Origin: a virus
Taxonomy: Duplodnaviria > Heunggongvirae > Uroviricota > Caudoviricetes
DNA: 25,188 nt
IMG/VR virus record: IMGVR_UViG_2547132281_000006
Coordinates: 1 to 25,188 of that record
Strand: one strand, 5' to 3'
The translations under genes were made by a program, and so were the position numbers. Below are positions 1,047-20,655 of the stretch, piece by piece; the first letter of the stretch is position 1, and the number at the start of each line of letters is the position of its first letter. The notes under the pieces were generated by a model. That model made no database searches. It saw only the letters and a list, made by a program, of their open reading frames with translations, and was not told where the DNA came from.

Positions 1047-1631
1047 TTACTCCCTGACAGGGTTCGTAGGCCACTCAATATCAGGTGCAGTTGATGTATC
1101 AACACGGTTCAGCAACACCCGATACTTTTTCCAGGCTTCCAGCAATGAGGTTTCTTCCTCCGTTGCAATTTCCAGATCTGCAGCATCCTGAAGCGGCGCA
1201 ATATGCTCACTGGCTACCTGCATCAGGTTGTTTTTTGTTTCTTCCGCCTCCCGGATCCGGAACAGTTTTTCTGCTTCTGCATCTTTCACCCAGGTTGTGC
1301 CGTTCCACTTCTGAAACTCCCCTTCCGGCGATAACCAGGTAACATTTTCCGGTAATAAGCCGAGTTCAGAAATAAATAACGCGTCGCCGGAAGCTACGTC
1401 ATAAACCGTTTTACCCCGATGATCTTCAACGAGATGCCACGATGCCTCATCACTGTTGAAAACAGCCACAAAGCCAGCCGGAATATCTGGCGGTGCAATA
1501 TCGGTACTGTTTGCTGGCAGACCTGTATGAGGCGGAATATATGCGTCACCTTCACCAATAAATTCATTAGTTCCGGCCAGCAGATTATAAATTTTTATGG
1601 TCCGTGCTTGTTCACTCATTCTGAATGCCAT
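1047..1631 (-). CDS. tfa: Tail fibre assembly protein (lambda Tfa family)
   Basis: 194-aa ORF with typical Tfa N-terminus ([36 protein letters not shown]) and conserved C-terminal block. Confidence 0.85.
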
Positions 1632-10135: not shown

Positions 10136-10669
10136 TTATCTGTCGATTCCCCAGCACGCCAGCGCGCTCTCCTGGTCACGACGGGATACCTGACCGTAAC
10201 AGTTATTTGAGCGAATACGGCAGTCCCTGCCACCGTCCTTAATCCACCAGCGAATCGCCTCACACGCTCCCCTGCGATCACCTGCATTAATTCGTTTATA
10301 AAACGTCGACGGAAAACACTTACCGGGGCCAATGTTGTACGGACAGAATGACGCGATCCCCGCTTTCTGGGGTTCACTCAATGGCACTCTGATGTTTTTC
10401 TCCACCCATGCCAGCGCCTTATCACGCTCAATGGCGTTAACCCGGTCGCATTTTTCCTTCGACAACTTCATGCCCGGAACGACAGGTTTGCCATCCACCA
10501 GGATGGCACCGCGGCAGATGGTCCAGATACCCGCGCCATCACGGTATGCCGTGGTGTGGTTACCTTCCTTTTCATCCAGAAACTGGTCGAGAATGTCAGG
10601 CGCAGGCGCACCAGCGGCAATCAGCGCCAGAACGGCAGCCGACAGGCCGTATCTGATTTTTGTGTTCAT
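10136..10669 (-). CDS. Phage lysozyme R (GH24 endolysin, probably SAR-type)
   Basis: 177 aa; Gly/Ala-rich hydrophobic N-terminus (YGLSAAVLALIAAGAPA), then EKEGNHTTAYRDGAGIWTICRG consistent with a GH24 catalytic region. Confidence 0.85.
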   Translation of the reverse strand: MNTKIRYGLSAAVLALIAAGAPAPDILDQFLDEKEGNHTTAYRDGAGIWTICRGAILVDGKPVVPGMKLSKEKCDRVNAIERDKALAWVEKNIRVPLSEPQKAGIASFCPYNIGPGKCFPSTFYKRINAGDRRGACEAIRWWIKDGGRDCRIRSNNCYGQVSRRDQESALACWGIDR

Positions 10670-10774
10670 GGATATTTATCAGGATTTATCGGTTTCTGAG
10701 CCCTGGATATGTTTATCAGTTCCAGCCTGTTGCCTCAGGCTGCTAACAGGTCAATACAATCATGAGGATTATTT

Positions 10775-11047
10775 ATGGACAATAACACCATTTCTCTACA
10801 GGAGTTGCTCGACAGCATTTCCAGGCTTCGGGAAGACGTGAATACCCTTACCGTCGCCTTCTCATATCTGGCATTCTCAATTCCAAGGGAACAGATGCAA
10901 TCAACGCTGGCATCAATCCAGTTTGAATCATGCAATCCCAAATGGTCTCAGGAACAACAAGACTCTTTCAGGCGGCTTGCTGTATTACTGGATGAAAAAT
11001 ATGCTGGTGAAATTACCATTTCGGCGGACTCTTCAGAGAACCCGTAA
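10775..11047 (+). CDS. Hypothetical 90-aa protein, antisense insert inside the lysis cassette
   Basis: GAGGA SD 9 nt upstream; helical-looking protein; no minus-strand coding alternative in this 343-bp gap; rare AGG codons. Confidence 0.45.
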   Translation: MDNNTISLQELLDSISRLREDVNTLTVAFSYLAFSIPREQMQSTLASIQFESCNPKWSQEQQDSFRRLAVLLDEKYAGEITISADSSENP

Positions 11048-11357
11048 TTATTCCCGGTAGTTTTCCTCTGTAGGTTATCAACACATCCTGCGCCTCTAAA
11101 ATTACGGGGCGCTTTTCCGGCGACTGCTCATCCCCTTCACATAACCCGGCAGCAACATCCAGGAAGACCTGTCTGATGCTCCTTCTGGCTGCTGCCTCAT
11201 AAAACTCCAGCGCGGCACCTTCAACACGGTCCAGCGAGATGTCCAGGTCAAAAATTTCACCGTCAAAGCGTTTTTTGTCCCGTAACGCTAAAGTTACCGT
11301 AACTTTATTCTCAAAATTGCGGATCCCTTTCACAATCAGTTTATAGTTTTGAGTCAT
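11013..11357 (-). CDS. YdfR-like protein located between holin and endolysin
   Basis: 114 aa; start 4 nt after the holin stop; same position as ydfR in Qin as recalled; C-terminal ~11 aa overlap the plus-strand ORF. Confidence 0.55.
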   Translation of the reverse strand: MTQNYKLIVKGIRNFENKVTVTLALRDKKRFDGEIFDLDISLDRVEGAALEFYEAAARRSIRQVFLDVAAGLCEGDEQSPEKRPVILEAQDVLITYRGKLPGIITGSLKSPPKW

Positions 11358-11361
11358 TGAA

Positions 11362-11577
11362 TTACTCTCCCCGTGCAGCCTTACGACGGTCCTCTCTGAT
11401 TTTGAAATACAGGTTAGTCAGATATGTCAGCAGCCCAAACAGCAGACTCCCCAGCACGCCTATTGCCGCCCACTGAGACGGGGAAACCCTGTCCAGCAAC
11501 TGCAGGAACCAGTAGCCCGTTCCCACCGCTGACGTGGTGTATGACACACCTGTTGTGATTTTTTCCATCTGGTACAT
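11362..11577 (-). CDS. Holin, phage 21 S-like (pinholin class), dual-start motif MYQM
   Basis: From M27 of the longest ORF: [51 protein letters not shown] is near-identical to recalled S21; two in-frame starts 3 codons apart (11577 and 11568). Confidence 0.85.
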
Positions 11578-11727
11578 ACCCCGTCTCCCGTTATCCGGAA
11601 GCTGACAACAATAAAAAAAGCCACCAGTTAAGTACTGATGGCTCTGATAACTCATGCAGGCATCTCAGACGACCCACTGACACTACCGGTGAGTTTAACG
11701 ATACCTTCCATTTGGCTGGCTCACTTT

Positions 11728-13584
11728 TTATGATGATGCCGGTGCATTTATCTCCAGCACCAGACTTTCTATCTCAACGCCATACGCTGCATTTTTGGTA
11801 ATATCCGTCAGCGTCAGCGCATTCAGCCCCAGTGTCAGACTGTCTTTTATGACCTGGAATGCCGGGCCAGCCACTCCATTCAGTTTCGGAGTAACCGTGG
11901 CACTGCCGGCGGTGAACACCAGCTCCAGCGTCTGCCAGTCGTTACTGTAATTCCCGAACTCGCCCAACTTTGTGTTTCCTGCTTTCTTGTGATGCATCAG
12001 ATTCAGTTTGCCGTCTGTGGTCTGGGTGAAGAACGACATCAGGAACGGGTTACCAGTCCCGGTCATCGCCACGACGTCAGGTAACGCTACATCGGTATAC
12101 AGATAAATTCCCAGACCGAACTGGTTGTTGGTCAGTGCGCCTGACAGTCGAAACTTACAGCTCAGTCTGCCACCCCGTGTCAGCAGGGAGACTGCGTCAT
12201 CCACCGGATGCATCAGGGACCAGGTTTTATTGCTCTGCTTGGTAACCTTAAACACACCATCTTCCAGCGCAACACTGCCGCCGGTGATGGTCCAGCCCTG
12301 CGCAGCAGCCTCTCCGGCTGTCGGCAGCAGGGAGACTGTACGAACGGATGTGTCACCATCAGACGGCCCCGATGGAGTGTCGCCGCCGGGCGAGGGTTTG
12401 ATTTCCGGTGCCTTACCACTAATGAAGGCTAAGGTGCGACCGGCTACGTTCAGAATAGCAGTTGCCATACGATCGGGAATAATGCCACGACGCGCCCATG
12501 AGCTGAAATGCGTCGGGCGATTTGATGATACCCAATTACCATTACTACGGGATTGCGCGCCGTAATAACCTGCATCAGCAATATCCGGGTCTTCTGCCGG
12601 TAAGTTGGTGGGCGTGTTGTTGCCGTTACCGTCGGTCATGAACGGCACAAAGAAAACGTTGTCGCTCTCCCTGTTTTTGTACGCGCCGTAGACGGAGTCA
12701 TACTGTGTGCCGTATGTGTTTTTCCAGTAATACGTCGTGTCGCCACAAATCCACGGTACAACTGCAGCACTGCCGCCATGGCACTGCGCGTTAAATCCGG
12801 AAAGGTCAGTACGGAACTGCTTCAGCATGGCCGTGAACAGGTCCGGTTGCTGTGCGTAGGTGGCAGCGCTCATGTCAAATTCGCCCTGCATCCAGCACAC
12901 CGCCAGCAACACATTTTTCGGGTTCCTCTGTAATGCCGCTTTGGTGCGTGCGATCAGGTCCTGATATAACGGTTTACCCACACCCCAGCGTGCCGAATCC
13001 TGGCTGGCCCCCGTGTCCGCACTGAATGTCCCCTCCGCGCCCTGGGTGAATGCCGAACCACCACGACAGCATGGTACCAGCAGGATCCCCGCGTTATTCG
13101 GGATATACGGAAGCAGTTTTTTGGCAATATGTAAGCCCTGGCCGACACAGCCGTACTGCCCTTTGCTCAGGTCTGCCTTCGGATGATTCAGTGCGCTCAT
13201 ATCCTGAACATCATGCAGGCAGTGGTCTGCCGGAATGATGTCGTTAAATGCGCATGCTTTACCACCGGGAGTCACTGTGTTGCGACGGGCCAGTTGCTTA
13301 ATGCGTGGGTGGGGCGCATCGTAAGAATCCGGAAGCGGAAGCCCTTCACCGTAAGCCATGGCATTGGATTGCCCGGCCAGTACGATGACGTAGTACCACT
13401 CCGGCTCAGTTGCACCACTGACGACCACATCACCTTCTGCTGCAATCGCCTGCATCAGGGTATAAGGGGTTATGGCCACCGGACTACCAAACGGCTGCCA
13501 GCCCTCTTTCAGTTTATGTGTCAGCTTTTCCGCAAGATCTGACGGCGACGCCGCCCTGACAACATCATAGTGTTTAAATGCCAT
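11728..13584 (-). CDS. Prophage sialate O-acetylesterase (NanS-p type: N-terminal DUF1737-like domain plus SASA/SGNH esterase)
   Basis: Start at ATG 13584 (MAFKHYDVV, GGTGGA SD); LAGQSNAMAYGEG esterase motif; ~620 aa; sits between the stx-equivalent locus and the holin as in Stx phages. Confidence 0.8.
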   Translation of the reverse strand: MAFKHYDVVRAASPSDLAEKLTHKLKEGWQPFGSPVAITPYTLMQAIAAEGDVVVSGATEPEWYYVIVLAGQSNAMAYGEGLPLPDSYDAPHPRIKQLARRNTVTPGGKACAFNDIIPADHCLHDVQDMSALNHPKADLSKGQYGCVGQGLHIAKKLLPYIPNNAGILLVPCCRGGSAFTQGAEGTFSADTGASQDSARWGVGKPLYQDLIARTKAALQRNPKNVLLAVCWMQGEFDMSAATYAQQPDLFTAMLKQFRTDLSGFNAQCHGGSAAVVPWICGDTTYYWKNTYGTQYDSVYGAYKNRESDNVFFVPFMTDGNGNNTPTNLPAEDPDIADAGYYGAQSRSNGNWVSSNRPTHFSSWARRGIIPDRMATAILNVAGRTLAFISGKAPEIKPSPGGDTPSGPSDGDTSVRTVSLLPTAGEAAAQGWTITGGSVALEDGVFKVTKQSNKTWSLMHPVDDAVSLLTRGGRLSCKFRLSGALTNNQFGLGIYLYTDVALPDVVAMTGTGNPFLMSFFTQTTDGKLNLMHHKKAGNTKLGEFGNYSNDWQTLELVFTAGSATVTPKLNGVAGPAFQVIKDSLTLGLNALTLTDITKNAAYGVEIESLVLEINAPASS

Positions 13585-13844
13585 GGTTCTTTCCACCATC
13601 TGAAAAATGATTCTTTAAAATACCTGACATGTAATACAGAAAAAACACAAAACCATACCTTAAATAAAAACCTCATCATCAAGCAGATATGCATGGATAA
13701 ACTACAAGACGAGATATAAACCACCCTGCATTTAAATAAACAATAAACAACATCAGAAAAATAATTCTGCTCTATGGTTTACAATCAAAAATATCATTTA
13801 TACTTTTCAGAACATCACCAGCAAGGCATAAACAAGGAAACTAA

Positions 13845-14180
13845 ATGAAGTGGATTGTGATTGATACAGTTATCCAGCCATCATGCGGAATATCTTTTTC
13901 AGTCATATGGAGTAAAATAAAATTAATAATCTGGTATCAATCGGATGCTTTCTTACCTCCTGAAAGTATATTTACACTGACTCACACAGGCATCATGCTC
14001 AATAACAAAGTGCTACCTGTAACCATTTACAACGTAGTACCATTCAATAAAACATTCTGGAATTTAATCAAAAACAGCCAGGAATGCCCTACAAATACAG
14101 ATAACGTATTGAATGAATGCTTTAATAACCGTTGCACTCTGCAAATATGTCCTTATGGGCTAAAACAACAAAGTCCATAA
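13845..14180 (+). CDS. Hypothetical 111-aa protein in AT-rich stx-equivalent locus (uncertain)
   Basis: AAGGA SD 8 nt upstream; AT-rich; four Cys in the C-terminal 25 aa; antisense to the late transcript. Confidence 0.3.
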
Positions 14181-14214
14181 GGAGTTTACTCACATCTGAC
14201 AAAATCAATATAAA

Positions 14215-14236
14215 CAGCCCCTCCGGAGAGGGGCTG
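14215..14236 (-). terminator. GC-rich hairpin downstream of the tRNA cluster
   Basis: 9-bp stem CAGCCCCTC / GAGGGGCTG with 4-nt loop; on the minus strand followed by TTTATATTGATTTTG. Confidence 0.4.
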
Positions 14237-14471
14237 GAGAGTGGCGCTATGTGCCATTGCATGGTGCCGGGTGCCTCCCGGTGAATTCAGTACCAGCACC
14301 TGAATCCGCGATTATCCCATATACCTACTCGCTGATTGCCCCTCCGCACAGGGGGATTCACCATGCCAGTTTCTTTTAACAAACTCCCCGCAAACCAGAC
14401 AACAGTCAACCGCCTAAATTGTGAGACATTTAAAAAAAAGGCCCACAAAAGCGAGCCAGGGAAAATAAGTG

Positions 14472-14548
14472 TGGCGCGTTGTACTGGATTCGAACCAGTG
14501 ACCGATTGCTTAGAAGGCAATTGCTCTGTCCGGCTGAGCTAACAACGC
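14472..14548 (-). tRNA. tRNA-Arg (anticodon TCT)
   Basis: Reverse complement folds as a cloverleaf: acceptor GCGTTGT/ACAACGC, D-arm GCTC..GAGC, anticodon loop CTTCTAA, T-arm ACTGG-TTCGAAT-CCAGT, encoded CCA. Confidence 0.85.
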
Positions 14549-14561
14549 ATGATGCAGATAA

Positions 14562-14638
14562 TGGACCGCCATCGGGGACTTGAACCCCGCGCAACCAGCT
14601 TCGAAGGCTGGCGCTCTTTCCTGATGAGCTAATGGCGG
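14562..14638 (-). tRNA. tRNA-Arg (anticodon TCG)
   Basis: Acceptor CCGCCAT/ATGGCGG, D-arm GCTC..GAGC, anticodon stem CCAGC/GCTGG with loop CTTCGAA, T-arm CGGGG-TTCAAGT-CCCCG, encoded CCA. Confidence 0.8.
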
Positions 14639-14645
14639 TATGTGA

Positions 14646-14721
14646 TGGTGGCCCTTGCTGGATTTGAACCAGCGACCTGGCGATTATGAGTCGCTCGCTC
14701 TCACCACTGAGCTAAAGGGCC
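14646..14721 (-). tRNA. tRNA with CAT anticodon (Ile2/lysidine type, ileX/ileZ-like, or Met)
   Basis: Sequence GGCCCTTTAGCTCAGTGGTGAGAGCGAGCGACTCATAATCGCCAGGTCGCTGGTTCAAATCCAGCAAGGGCCACCA closely resembles recalled E. coli ileX. Confidence 0.8.
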
Positions 14722-16394: not shown

Positions 16395-17216
16395 CTATCG
16401 CGTTACCCTCTTTAACTGCCGCTCCGCCCATGCCTCTTCAATGTCAAACCGAACCACCAACGTATCGTAAAAGCGTTTCACTGATTTTTTCCACGTATCA
16501 AGCGTGATAGCACTCGTCACTTTGCATATGGCATTAAATGCCTCCGTTGATGGCAGCCTTTCACAGCCACGACCACCACAACGCTGGCAGTCTCTGATAA
16601 CAGGCATACCACGTTTTACCGACTCTTCACGATGAATGGCGACACCACGCCCACGGCAATCCTTACAGGCGGTGGAAACCTCACCCTTTCCGCCACACTC
16701 CGGACAGGCAACTTTTACCACCTCCCTGACTTTTTTCCATTCTTCCCAGTAAGACGAATACACACCTTTCGTACACTTTGCCCATACCGGCGGCTTACCA
16801 TCCGGATACTGGACCTTGTTTGTAAAAACCTCGCTTTCAATAAATTTTTTTCCGTGACAGCAGGGGCACTGTTTTTTGCTCGCCGCGCTACGGGCATAAT
16901 CTTCAAACGCATACGAAGCCATAATACGCATCACTGCCGGTTTTATTTCTGCCGGGAGTTTTCTTAACGCCGCCACGCGATCACACCGACTGAGTGCATA
17001 TTCTGTCAGCAATTCTGTTGCCCGCTCTCTGTCATTCATACTAATGCCCATTTTACCAAGGAACGCAGAAAACCCCATCTCAGCCCGATTCTGTGTCATG
17101 CCCTGCGCGGCCATCACATCAGTGATACTCAGCGCATCTTTCGACGTTGAGGCCGATGCATCAGTCAGGCCGGGGGATTTTGGGGAGTAGTATTTCGGTA
17201 AATCTTCCAGTTTCAT
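16395..17216 (-). CDS. Q: Late-gene antiterminator Q (lambda-type, enlarged zinc-binding region)
   Basis: 273 aa; N-terminus (YYSPKSP...TDVMAAQGM), middle (ASYAFEDYARSAA) and C-terminus (RFYDTLVV...KRVTR) parallel recalled lambda Q; four CxxC motifs; start overlaps the rusA stop (ATGA). Confidence 0.8.
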   Translation of the reverse strand: MKLEDLPKYYSPKSPGLTDASASTSKDALSITDVMAAQGMTQNRAEMGFSAFLGKMGISMNDRERATELLTEYALSRCDRVAALRKLPAEIKPAVMRIMASYAFEDYARSAASKKQCPCCHGKKFIESEVFTNKVQYPDGKPPVWAKCTKGVYSSYWEEWKKVREVVKVACPECGGKGEVSTACKDCRGRGVAIHREESVKRGMPVIRDCQRCGGRGCERLPSTEAFNAICKVTSAITLDTWKKSVKRFYDTLVVRFDIEEAWAERQLKRVTR

Positions 17217-20602: not shown

Positions 20603-20655
20603 TTTCTGGTGACTTTTGGCGGTATCAGTTTTACTCCGTGACTGCTCTGCCGCCC
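20603..20655 (+). ncRNA. dicF: DicF small RNA (ftsZ-targeting sRNA of Qin-type prophages)
   Basis: TTTCTGGTGACTTTTGGCGGTATCAGTTTTACTCCGTGACTGCTCTGCCGCCC followed by TTTTT matches recalled K-12 DicF with ~2 substitutions; lies immediately upstream of the dicB-like gene. Confidence 0.8.

What the first reader, a model, noticed from the sequence alone, without database searches (positions are those of the whole stretch)
10670..11050. Antisense 90-aa gene with its own repeat-rich upstream region inserted between ydfR-like gene and endolysin
Seen: the 343-bp gap between the YdfR-like stop and the lysozyme start has no minus-strand ORF but holds a plus-strand 90-aa ORF (10775-11047, GAGGA SD). Its upstream region carries a direct repeat GGATAT(G)TTTATCAG (10670-10683, 10706-10720) and an inverted repeat CCTGTT...AACAGG. 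The ORF runs against the late operon and overlaps the YdfR-like 3' end by 35 bp. Inference: a moron with its own promoter, likely expressed in the lysogen; function unknown.
Basis: partly seen in the sequence, partly recalled or inferred. Interest (0 to 1): 0.5.

Follow-up and report, generated by a model that had tools for sequence, protein, structure and literature searches.

The report
Antisense accessory gene in prophage lysis cassette
The 90-codon reading frame that runs backwards between two lysis genes of this E. coli prophage is a real, conserved gene with its own start and stop signals, an ordinary kind of prophage passenger gene ("moron") whose job is still unknown.

Summary
The ORF at 10775-11047 (+) is real, has a GAGGA ribosome-binding site, lies in the 343-bp ydfR-R gap and overlaps the ydfR-like gene by 35 bp.

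It is a true protein-coding gene. dN/dS is 0.2-0.4, and the frame stays at 90 codons down to 72% nucleotide identity. It matches PHROG 2411 over its full length and is annotated 'hypothetical protein' in about 1200 of 5426 complete E. coli genomes, including BL21, REL606 and CFT073. An equally common variant of the same cassette (1221 genomes) lacks it.

Relatives sit at four other positions in prophage late operons of other genera, always antisense. Others lie on plasmids and islands. In Serratia, Sodalis and Winslowiella the gene is chromosomal, between dinI and bssS.

The unit carries promoter-like sites (a -10 hexamer conserved in five genera), a 5' hairpin and a terminator-like hairpin. 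This fits the moron definition, but expression was not shown.

The predicted product is an acidic three-helix cytoplasmic protein with no informative relative.

One amendment: the gene is not a simple insertion. It travels with a small convergent partner ORF, which in E. coli is fused to YdfR as a new C-terminal tail.

Verdict: new member of a known kind, moderate interest.

The parts
10775..11047 (+). Coding sequence of the 90-aa protein. It belongs to PHROG 2411 and is 1 aa from RefSeq WP_000369850.1. The predicted product is an acidic three-helix cytoplasmic protein.
   Evidence: dN/dS is 0.18-0.41 in all informative pairs. AF2 gives pLDDT 81.8 with helices 8-35, 38-52 and 59-76. pI is 4.3.
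10764..10768 (+). Shine-Dalgarno GAGGA, 6 nt upstream of the ATG.
   Evidence: Read directly from the sequence. It is kept in all E. coli alleles.
10685..10713 (+). Candidate promoter P1: TTTATC, 17-nt spacer, TATGTT. The -10-like hexamer at 10708-10713 is part of the second direct-repeat copy.
   Evidence: Rough PWM score is 8.5 bits. T1, A2, T3 and T6 of the hexamer are invariant in 9 sequences from 5 genera: TATGTT, TATGAT, TATGGT and TATTGT.
10730..10760 (+). Candidate promoter P2: TTGCCT, 19-nt spacer, TACAAT. It is found in E. coli only and would give a very short leader.
   Evidence: PWM score is 11.2 bits, among the 5 best in the 25-kb window on both strands. The hexamer is TATAAT in the iha-island copy and GACAAT in L021 and L022. 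The tool's consensus scan missed it because its spacer limit is 16-18 nt.
10723..10742 (+). Hairpin CAGCCTG-TTGCCT-CAGGCTG. It would sit at the 5' end of a P1 transcript. Its loop is the -35 hexamer of P2.
   Evidence: A 4-8-bp hairpin lies at the same place relative to the TATGNT hexamer in 7 of 8 copies. One pair changes on both sides between Citrobacter (T-A) and Atlantibacter/L111 (C-G).
10670..10719 (+). Repeat region with GGATATTTATCAG, GGATTTATCGG and GGATATGTTTATCAG. On the minus strand it is also the SD-less leader of the R lysozyme gene.
   Evidence: In this comparison it is one of the two most conserved stretches among the 29 unique E. coli variants plus the window (30 aligned sequences); only the terminator hairpin scores higher (mean identity 0.949). 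It is partly kept upstream of the gene in Atlantibacter, where R is not the neighbour. It is also kept in gene-less cassettes.
11090..11116 (+). Terminator-like hairpin GCGCCUC-N9-GGGGCGC followed by UUUU, 43 nt after the stop codon. It lies inside the ydfR-like coding region on the other strand.
   Evidence: Free energy is -12.3 kcal/mol. It is kept, with better pairing, in the iha-island copy where ydfR is gone. A similar hairpin with a U run lies downstream in Citrobacter. The tool's scan missed it because the loop is 9 nt and the run is 4 U.
11013..11135 (-). C-terminal tail (residues 75-114) of the 114-aa YdfR-like protein. It is homologous to the small convergent partner ORFs that accompany the gene in other genera. 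Its last 35 nt overlap the 3' end of the 90-aa gene.
   Evidence: Homology to K-12 YdfR ends at residue 74. The motif I-x-G-x-L-x-x-P and an N-terminal (T/S)LExRVExLE are shared with the Citrobacter 63-aa, Atlantibacter 71-aa, L111 46-aa and Yersinia 71-aa ORFs.
11136..11357 (-). N-terminal DUF1327 domain of the YdfR-like protein. This is a neighbour, not part of the unit.
   Evidence: The N-terminal 72 residues of K-12 YdfR bind the catalytic half of RNase E (PMC13232886).
10136..10669 (-). R endolysin (Phage_lysozyme). This is a neighbour, downstream in the late operon.

Best explanation
The segment from about 10670 to 11116 is a self-contained accessory transcription unit, a moron, set against the direction of the late operon of a lambdoid prophage.

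Inferred mechanism. In the lysogen the Q-dependent late operon is silent. Host sigma-70 RNA polymerase starts at a promoter just upstream. The candidates are P1 (TTTATC-17-TATGTT, 10685-10713, conserved across genera) and/or P2 (TTGCCT-19-TACAAT, 10730-10760, E. coli only). It transcribes a short leader with a 5' hairpin and the 273-nt gene, then stops at the hairpin and U run at 11090-11116. The result would be a monocistronic mRNA of about 350-400 nt.

The product is a 10-kDa, acidic (pI 4.3), soluble three-helix protein with a disordered tail. Most likely it acts by binding a host protein or nucleic-acid-binding factor, as a small modulator. It is not an enzyme or a membrane protein, and it is not needed for lysis.

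It is a phage- and plasmid-borne copy of a gene that is chromosomal in other Enterobacterales, where it lies between dinI and bssS.

Shown: the coding status, the mobility, the presence/absence polymorphism and the signal-like sequences. Inferred: promoter use, expression in the lysogen and the binding-modulator function.
For: Coding.
- dN/dS is 0.18-0.41 in every informative pair, including the copy at 72% nucleotide identity.
- Exactly 90 codons are intact in at least 81 of 87 sampled copies.
- The PHROG 2411 match is full length, E 1.5e-58.
- Relatives down to 25-40% identity keep AFSYLAFS and FES-N motifs.

Accessory and mobile.
- The gene is in about 1206 of 5426 complete E. coli genomes.
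- A scar-like cassette without it is in 1221 genomes.
- K-12 Qin has ydfR abutting R with no gap, while the same prophage in another strain carries the gene.
- In other prophages the gene sits upstream of the holin (Citrobacter), between gpM and gpL (Atlantibacter), between the tape measure and gpM (L111, L112), or after gpI (Yersinia). It is antisense to the late genes in all five contexts.
- Copies lie beside iha on an island and beside an AIDA-type autotransporter on 75 plasmids.
- Chromosomal synteny pyrC-dinI-X-bssS-solA holds in three families.

Signals.
- Promoter-like sites.
- A -10 hexamer invariant at T1, A2, T3 and T6 in five genera.
- A 5' hairpin.
- A terminator-like hairpin kept where ydfR is lost.
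- GC is 45% against 55% for R.

Protein. The AF2 model has pLDDT 81.8 and is all-helical. No signal peptide or membrane span is visible by inspection of the sequence; no predictor was run. It is acidic.
Against: - No transcript, start-site or protein data were found for any strain with the gene.
- The -35 of P1 is weak (3 of 6). P2 has a 19-nt spacer and would cut into the ribosome-binding site.
- The tool's own consensus scan found no promoter or terminator here.
- The terminator has only 4 U and a 9-nt loop. Its conservation in E. coli could be due to the YdfR tail encoded on the other strand.
- The function rests on size, charge and fold only. No sequence or fold relative of known function exists.
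- The constant company of a convergent partner ORF in prophages hints that the gene may not act alone.
Confidence: 0.6

Rival explanations
1. The gene works only as half of a convergent two-gene cassette. Its product, or its mRNA through the 3' overlap, counteracts or is controlled by the small partner protein. In E. coli that partner is the tail fused to YdfR. The relation would resemble an antagonist/antidote pair or a lysogeny-versus-lytic switch on the partner.
For: In all five prophage contexts the gene is accompanied by a minus-strand ORF that overlaps its 3' end. Those ORFs share the C-terminal motif I-x-G-x-L-x-x-P and an N-terminal coiled-coil-like stretch. They are conserved at the protein level while the DNA diverges, for example Leu encoded by TTA versus CTG.
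Against: The gene is alone and monocistronic in Serratia, Sodalis and Winslowiella chromosomes and on E. coli plasmids. The YdfR tail persists without the gene in 1221 genomes. The linkage may exist simply because the partner's coding sequence overlaps the gene's 3' end and 3' flank, so any recombination that keeps one keeps the other.
Confidence: 0.2
2. The gene belongs to the lytic programme and is not lysogen-expressed. It would be made after induction, from its own promoter or by processing, and would help phage development, for example against a host defence or in lysis timing.
For: It lies in late operons in all five prophage contexts examined. Small acidic helical proteins are typical of phage inhibitors of host factors (general knowledge). 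No lysogen expression data exist.
Against: It is antisense to the late operon in all five contexts, so late transcription cannot express it and would collide with it. Close homologues are chromosomal housekeeping-region genes and plasmid genes with no phage around them. The gene is dispensable in many Stx phages.
Confidence: 0.1
3. The important product is RNA, not protein. Transcription from this unit runs against the late operon. It would act in cis by transcriptional interference, or as an antisense RNA against the ydfR-R part of the late mRNA, damping accidental lysis-gene expression.
For: The transcript would be fully complementary to the 343-nt untranslated spacer and to the ydfR 3' end. 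R has no Shine-Dalgarno sequence and its leader overlaps the promoter region.
Against: Purifying selection acts on the amino-acid sequence. The protein family is conserved where there is nothing to be antisense to. An RNA effect could exist only as a side effect.
Confidence: 0.07
4. It is a decaying relic or chance ORF with no present function.
For: A minority of copies are frameshifted or truncated (clusters P0039, P0043 and P0062). The gene has been deleted in many cassettes.
Against: dN/dS is well below 1 and the length is conserved. Motifs are conserved to 25% identity across several families of Enterobacterales.
Confidence: 0.03

Closest known systems
Classical lambdoid morons (lambda bor and lom; HK97 gp15), as defined by Hendrix and co-workers. 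This is from my own knowledge. PMC7067206 and PMC9928086 turned up in the search; only PMC9928086 was read, and it uses the term moron in this sense.
   Same: It is an extra gene present in some and absent from other otherwise homologous phage genomes. It is set into a late operon, has promoter-like and terminator-like flanks of its own, has lower G+C than its neighbours and is dispensable for lytic growth.
   Different: Those morons have known products (outer-membrane proteins or an exclusion protein) and demonstrated expression in the lysogen. Here the product is a soluble helical protein of unknown role and expression is untested. Unlike the textbook picture, this gene comes with a convergent partner ORF and has rewritten the end of the resident ydfR gene.
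IraM-like anti-adaptor gene of the same prophage (window 13845-14180, +).
   Same: It is a second small gene oriented against the late operon in this window. It is low in G+C (35%). Its named family is a small cytoplasmic protein that acts by binding a host protein. It shows that such antisense passengers are normal in this phage type.
   Different: There is no sequence relationship: hhalign probability is 0.1%. IraM has a known target (RssB; my own knowledge), while the 90-aa protein has none.
PHROG 2411, RefSeq 'hypothetical protein' WP_000369850.1 / WP_000370546.1, and UniProt 'Ybl58'.
   Same: It is the same family. The profile match is full length, E 1.5e-58. The window protein differs by one residue (E78 instead of K78) from the commonest allele in the sampled viral-contig and genome copies.
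   Different: No function, structure or publication is attached to these names.
Chromosomal gene between dinI and bssS in Serratia, Sodalis, Winslowiella and relatives.
   Same: It is a homologue with 25-36% identity and the same length and motifs. It is monocistronic with its own terminator.
   Different: It is a core-like chromosomal gene in conserved synteny. It has no convergent partner ORF and a different upstream region. E. coli K-12 has no copy or relic at that locus.
Mip (LUZ24 gp4), the anti-silencing protein that binds MvaT.
   Same: It is a small phage protein. There is a weak local similarity over 15 residues (54-68).
   Different: The score is 13.7 bits against a family cut-off of 50, and E is 1.3 against the solved structure 6yse. 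This is not a member.

Membership tests
Moron (independently transcribed accessory gene of a prophage) | The gene is present in some and absent from other otherwise homologous phage genomes at the same junction. | tested here: met
Moron (independently transcribed accessory gene of a prophage) | It has its own promoter upstream. | tested here: inconclusive
   There are two sigma-70-like candidates (8.5 and 11.2 bits by a rough PWM), and the -10 hexamer is conserved in five genera. The standard consensus scan found none, and no activity data exist.
Moron (independently transcribed accessory gene of a prophage) | It has its own factor-independent terminator downstream. | tested here: inconclusive
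   A hairpin of -12.3 kcal/mol with 4 U lies at 11090-11116. It is kept in the island copy without ydfR. It is weaker than the tool's criteria.
Moron (independently transcribed accessory gene of a prophage) | It is expressed from the repressed prophage and is not required for lytic growth. | not testable with these tools
   Dispensability is implied by phages that lack it. Expression is unknown. The LF82 transcriptome was not usable because its Qin-like prophage has the K-12 type junction.
Moron (independently transcribed accessory gene of a prophage) | Its base composition differs from that of its neighbours. | tested here: met
   GC is 45% for the gene and 41% for the upstream region, against 55% for R and Rz. 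The difference is mild, because the YdfR N-domain is also 46%.
PHROG 2411 | A full-length, significant match to the family profile. | tested here: met
   Residues 1-90 match profile positions 1-90 of 90, E 1.5e-58. The Citrobacter, Atlantibacter and Serratia relatives also match.
Mip anti-silencing protein (NF041858) | A score at or above the curated cut-off of 50 bits. | tested here: not met
   The score is 13.7 bits over 15 residues.
LexA-controlled SOS gene (considered because of the CTGT...ACAG inverted repeat and the dinI neighbourhood) | A LexA box CTGT-N8-ACAG in the promoter region. | tested here: not met
   In the window CTGT (10727-10730) and ACAG (10746-10749) are 15 nt apart, not 8. 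No CTG-N10-CAG lies upstream of the Serratia, Winslowiella or Sodalis copies.
Known anti-phage defence proteins (PADLOC) | A match to any defence-system profile. | tested here: not met
   There were no hits for the protein, three relatives or the YdfR-like neighbour.
DUF1327 / YdfR (the neighbour, not the gene itself) | A match over the whole Pfam profile, including the C-terminal helix. | tested here: inconclusive
   The window protein passes the threshold (142.6 bits). Pairwise homology to K-12 YdfR stops at residue 74, while K-12 YdfR matches profile positions 1-93 of 93. The tail here is of different origin.

The most novel reading that the evidence does not exclude
The 90-aa gene and the small convergent ORF that overlaps its 3' end form a functional, mobile two-gene cassette, for example an antagonist pair or a lysogeny/lytic toggle. 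The cassette hops between late-operon junctions of enterobacterial prophages and, as it lands, fuses its partner ORF onto resident genes. In E. coli this gave the RNase E-binding YdfR domain a new tail, and in one metagenomic phage it fused the partner to an upstream reading frame whose identity is unknown because the contig ends. The 90-aa component itself was captured from a core chromosomal gene of the dinI-bssS stress/biofilm neighbourhood.
Probability: 0.2. Interest if true: 0.55.

Novelty: new member of a known kind. Interest (0 to 1): 0.35.

Why it matters
About one complete E. coli genome in five carries this gene, including the workhorse B strains (BL21(DE3), REL606), E. coli C and the uropathogen CFT073. 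Nothing is known about what it does.

If it is expressed from the silent prophage, it is one more way prophages change host physiology. Its chromosomal relatives next to dinI and bssS point to stress or biofilm regulation as the place to look.

The locus also gives a clean natural example of how a passenger gene is gained, lost (a scar in 1221 genomes) and fused into a resident phage gene.

It is not a new kind of system, and on present evidence it does not open a long-standing question.

Tried and rejected
Searches for a function that gave nothing.
- Sequence searches: Pfam and NCBIfam gave no hit beyond a sub-threshold Mip match. PADLOC gave none. PDB sequence searches with the single sequence and with the profile gave E of at least 0.36.
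- Fold searches, first model (pLDDT 67.5): Foldseek against PDB gave nothing below E = 1.
- Profile-profile comparison with IraM, BssS and DinI gave probabilities of at most 0.3%.

Other negative results.
- Rfam found no RNA family in 10500-11300.
- Literature searches for ybl58 and six RefSeq accessions found no papers.
- Expression data, LF82: the prophage transcriptome was checked, but its Qin-like prophage Tritos has the K-12 type ydfR/R junction without the gene.
- Expression data, LTEE: the supplements held no usable table.
- The partner ORF (Citrobacter 63 aa) had no tblastn match in the phage collection.

Readings considered and dropped.
- An upstream peptide starting at ATG 10709 (18 codons). 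It has no SD. Its length and sequence are not conserved: 4 codons in Citrobacter and 20 in Atlantibacter.
- Sigma-54, sigma-E and LexA sites in the repeat region. The spacings do not fit.
- The repeats as a target-site duplication. Both copies lie on the same side of the gene.
- The minus-strand 68-aa ORF. It is interrupted in 3 of 8 alleles.

Full report
**1. What is there**

The window is a lambdoid prophage whose late genes read on the minus strand. In order they are:
- the Q antiterminator (16395-17216)
- a sialate-esterase-like gene (11728-13599)
- a phage-21-type holin (11362-11577)
- a 114-aa YdfR-like protein (11013-11357)
- a 343-bp gap
- the R lysozyme (10136-10669)
- Rz and the terminase genes

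The gap holds the plus-strand ORF 10775-11047. It is 90 aa, starts with ATG, and has GAGGA 6 nt upstream. It overlaps the ydfR-like gene by 35 bp.

The direct repeat is real: 10670-10682 and 10705-10719, with a third partial copy at 10682-10692. It is reached by 1.8% of shuffles. The inverted repeat is reached by 19% of shuffles. A 68-aa minus-strand ORF in the gap is interrupted in 3 of 8 alleles, so it is not a gene.

**2. It is a real gene**

The protein matches PHROG 2411 from end to end, E 1.5e-58. RefSeq annotates it as 'hypothetical protein'.

Nine copies were compared, spanning 99% to 72% nucleotide identity. Eight keep exactly 90 codons and the plasmid paralogue keeps 89. dN/dS is 0.18-0.41 in every informative pair. 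At least 81 of 87 sampled copies are intact.

An exhaustive profile search of 1.84 billion representative proteins found only 19 matches. Word-indexed profile searches extended the family to 256 clusters at E <= 0.05. Of the 120 that were listed, those carrying an organism name are almost all Enterobacterales (a few are labelled Pseudomonas), and none has a Pfam domain or a name other than 'hypothetical' or 'Ybl58'. Relatives at 25-40% identity keep the motifs ELL..I..L...N.L..AFSYLAFS and FES.N...Q..F..LA.

**3. It is accessory and mobile**

Distribution in E. coli:
- The gene occurs in about 1206 of 5426 complete genomes. These include BL21(DE3), REL606, E. coli C, CFT073 and ATCC 8739.
- The flanking lysis genes occur in about 4200 genomes.
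- A gene-less version of the same junction occurs in 1221 genomes, often several times per genome in O157:H7. It keeps 10670-10713 and the last roughly 30 nt of the gene.
- In that version the YdfR reading frame is preserved to its end, so it looks like a deletion scar.
- K-12 Qin has a third arrangement, with a 103-aa YdfR whose stop overlaps the R start. Qin of another strain carries the gene.
- In phage phiSTEC1575-Stx2k the gene keeps its 105-bp upstream region and the ydfR side, but the R side is replaced by a different lysis cassette.

Positions in prophages of other genera:
- upstream of the holin in Citrobacter
- between gpM and gpL in Atlantibacter
- between the tape measure and gpM in two metagenomic contigs
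- after gpI in Yersinia

In all five contexts, counting E. coli, the gene is antisense to the late genes.

Copies outside prophages:
- A diverged copy lies beside iha on an island. It still carries relics of the R start and the ydfR end.
- A paralogue lies downstream of an AIDA-type autotransporter on 75 E. coli plasmids, 70 of them conjugative.

In Serratia, Winslowiella and Sodalis the gene is chromosomal and monocistronic. It sits in the conserved order pyrC-dinI-X-bssS-solA. K-12 has only 286 bp between dinI and bssS and no relic of the gene. In the strains examined, the E. coli copies (and the Citrobacter and Atlantibacter ones) lie on mobile elements, while the chromosomal copies were found in other families of the order.

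**4. Signals**

*Promoters.* A rough sigma-70 weight matrix, built from consensus frequencies recalled from memory, gives two candidates:
- P2, TTGCCT-19-TACAAT (10730-10760), scores 11.2 bits. That is among the five best in the whole window on both strands.
- P1, TTTATC-17-TATGTT (10685-10713), scores 8.5 bits.

The tool's stricter scan found neither.

P2 is specific to E. coli. Its hexamer is TATAAT in the island copy and GACAAT in two alleles. It would start transcription inside the ribosome-binding site.

The -10 hexamer of P1 is the most conserved non-coding element. T1, A2, T3 and T6 are invariant in nine sequences from five genera. It is followed at a fixed distance by a short hairpin in 7 of 8 copies. 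One pair of that hairpin changes on both sides between Citrobacter and Atlantibacter/L111.

*Terminator.* A hairpin at 11090-11112 followed by UUUU has a free energy of -12.3 kcal/mol. It is better paired in the island copy, where ydfR is gone. A comparable hairpin with a U run lies downstream in Citrobacter, and a strong terminator follows the Winslowiella chromosomal gene.

*Composition.* G+C is 45% for the gene and 41% upstream, against 55% for R.

Together these are the sequence hallmarks of a moron. None is a demonstration of activity.

**5. The partner ORF**

Homology between the window's YdfR and K-12 YdfR ends at residue 74. K-12 YdfR fits the whole DUF1327 profile. A recent study places RNase E binding in its first 72 residues and describes the rest as a separate helix (PMC13232886).

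Residues 75-114 of the window's protein are encoded opposite the 3' end and 3' flank of the 90-aa gene. This tail aligns with small minus-strand ORFs that overlap the 3' end of the gene in the other genera:
- Citrobacter, 63 aa
- Atlantibacter, 71 aa
- contig L111, 46 aa
- Yersinia, 71 aa

All share (T/S)LExRVExLE near the start and I-x-G-x-L-x-x-P near the end. The conservation is at the protein level. For example, ITGSL is spelled ATT ACC GGT TCG TTA in Citrobacter and ATT ACG GGT TCT CTG in E. coli.

In contig L112 the partner's start is replaced by an upstream reading frame.

So the gene moves as a convergent pair, and in E. coli the partner has been fused to the YdfR N-domain. Whether the pairing is functional or only a consequence of the overlap is open. 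The gene is alone in chromosomes and plasmids, and the tail survives without the gene in the scar variant.

**6. The protein**

With a 45-sequence alignment AlphaFold2 gives pLDDT 81.8. The model has helices at 8-35, 38-52 and 59-76 and a disordered tail at 81-90. The protein is 10.2 kDa, has pI 4.3, and shows no signal peptide or membrane span by inspection; no predictor was run.

No solved or predicted viral structure matches meaningfully. No sequence family of known function matches. It is unrelated to IraM, BssS and DinI.

**7. Most likely mechanism**

The steps below are inferred unless marked as shown in sections 2 to 4.
- In the lysogen, host RNA polymerase transcribes this unit on its own while the late operon is off.
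- The product is a small acidic helical protein that acts by binding a host factor.
- During lytic growth, Q-modified polymerase reads through it from the other side.

I put 0.6 on this whole chain. I put about 0.95 on 'real gene, mobile accessory unit'.

The rivals are:
- an obligate pair with the partner ORF (0.2)
- a lytic-cycle role (0.1)
- a mainly RNA-level antisense role (0.07)
- a relic (0.03)

**8. Verdict**

The gene is an ordinary kind of thing, a prophage moron of unknown function, already catalogued as a hypothetical protein family.

Three additions go beyond that reading: its origin in a chromosomal dinI-bssS neighbourhood gene, its travel with a convergent partner that remodelled YdfR, and the scar variant. 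These make it a tidy case study rather than a surprise.

Noticed in passing
window 11013-11357 (-): The 114-aa YdfR-like protein is a chimera. Residues 1-74 are the DUF1327 domain, reported to bind RNase E in K-12 (PMC13232886). Residues 75-114 replace the K-12 tail with a sequence homologous to small ORFs that accompany the 90-aa gene in Citrobacter, Atlantibacter, Yersinia and a metagenomic phage.
   Followed up: partly
window 10670-11012 (-) and R start at 10669: On the late transcript R is preceded by a 343-nt untranslated spacer and has no Shine-Dalgarno sequence in the 20 nt before its ATG (CCGATAAATCCTGATAAATATCC-ATG). In K-12 Qin the R start overlaps the ydfR stop (ATGA), which would allow translational coupling. 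How R is translated here is unclear.
   Followed up: no
L007 2570-2660 (Stx2a_1447) and 1221 E. coli genomes: The gene-less 'scar' junction keeps the P1-like element (TTTATC-17-TATGTT) pointing into the 3' end of ydfR. It also contains a short duplication (AGTCTTCAG twice) at the deletion point.
   Followed up: partly
window 13845-14180 (+): This is another small gene antisense to the late operon. It is 111 aa with G+C of 35%, and the same gene is annotated as anti-adapter protein IraM in a near-identical prophage (L001). It had no Pfam hit here.
   Followed up: partly
window 11362-11655 (-) and 11617-11645 (-): The holin ORF is listed as 97 aa, but the Pfam match starts at residue 31 and RefSeq aa (start 11577, MYQMEK...). 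That gives two Met codons three apart, like the dual-start pinholin of phage 21. R begins with a hydrophobic stretch (MNTKIRYGLSAAVLALIAAGAPA), like a signal-anchor-release endolysin. Both comparisons are from my own knowledge. A terminator-like hairpin with a T run lies just upstream of the holin on the minus strand. It may be the late-operon terminator that Q overrides.
   Followed up: no
window 1090-1288 (-), 14206-14395 (-), 14475-14721 (-), 20604-20655 (+): Rfam matches at gathering score: IS009 RNA, the sRNA STnc100, three tRNA genes between Q and the esterase gene, and DicF.
   Followed up: no
L010 6001-6285, L119 4001-4276, L121 4001-4270: The chromosomal homologue sits between dinI and bssS in Serratia, Winslowiella and Sodalis, with conserved synteny pyrC-dinI-X-bssS-solA. 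DinI-like genes are also common prophage passengers; one lies 5 kb away in the Citrobacter prophage L014. A shared capture event is conceivable but was not examined.
   Followed up: partly
L004 4995-5264; L114-L116: A paralogue with 62% protein identity lies about 300 bp downstream of an AIDA-type autotransporter (with its heptosyltransferase) and upstream of an AraC/GyrI-like regulator. It is on 75 E. coli plasmids, and its upstream region is different from the prophage copy's.
   Followed up: partly
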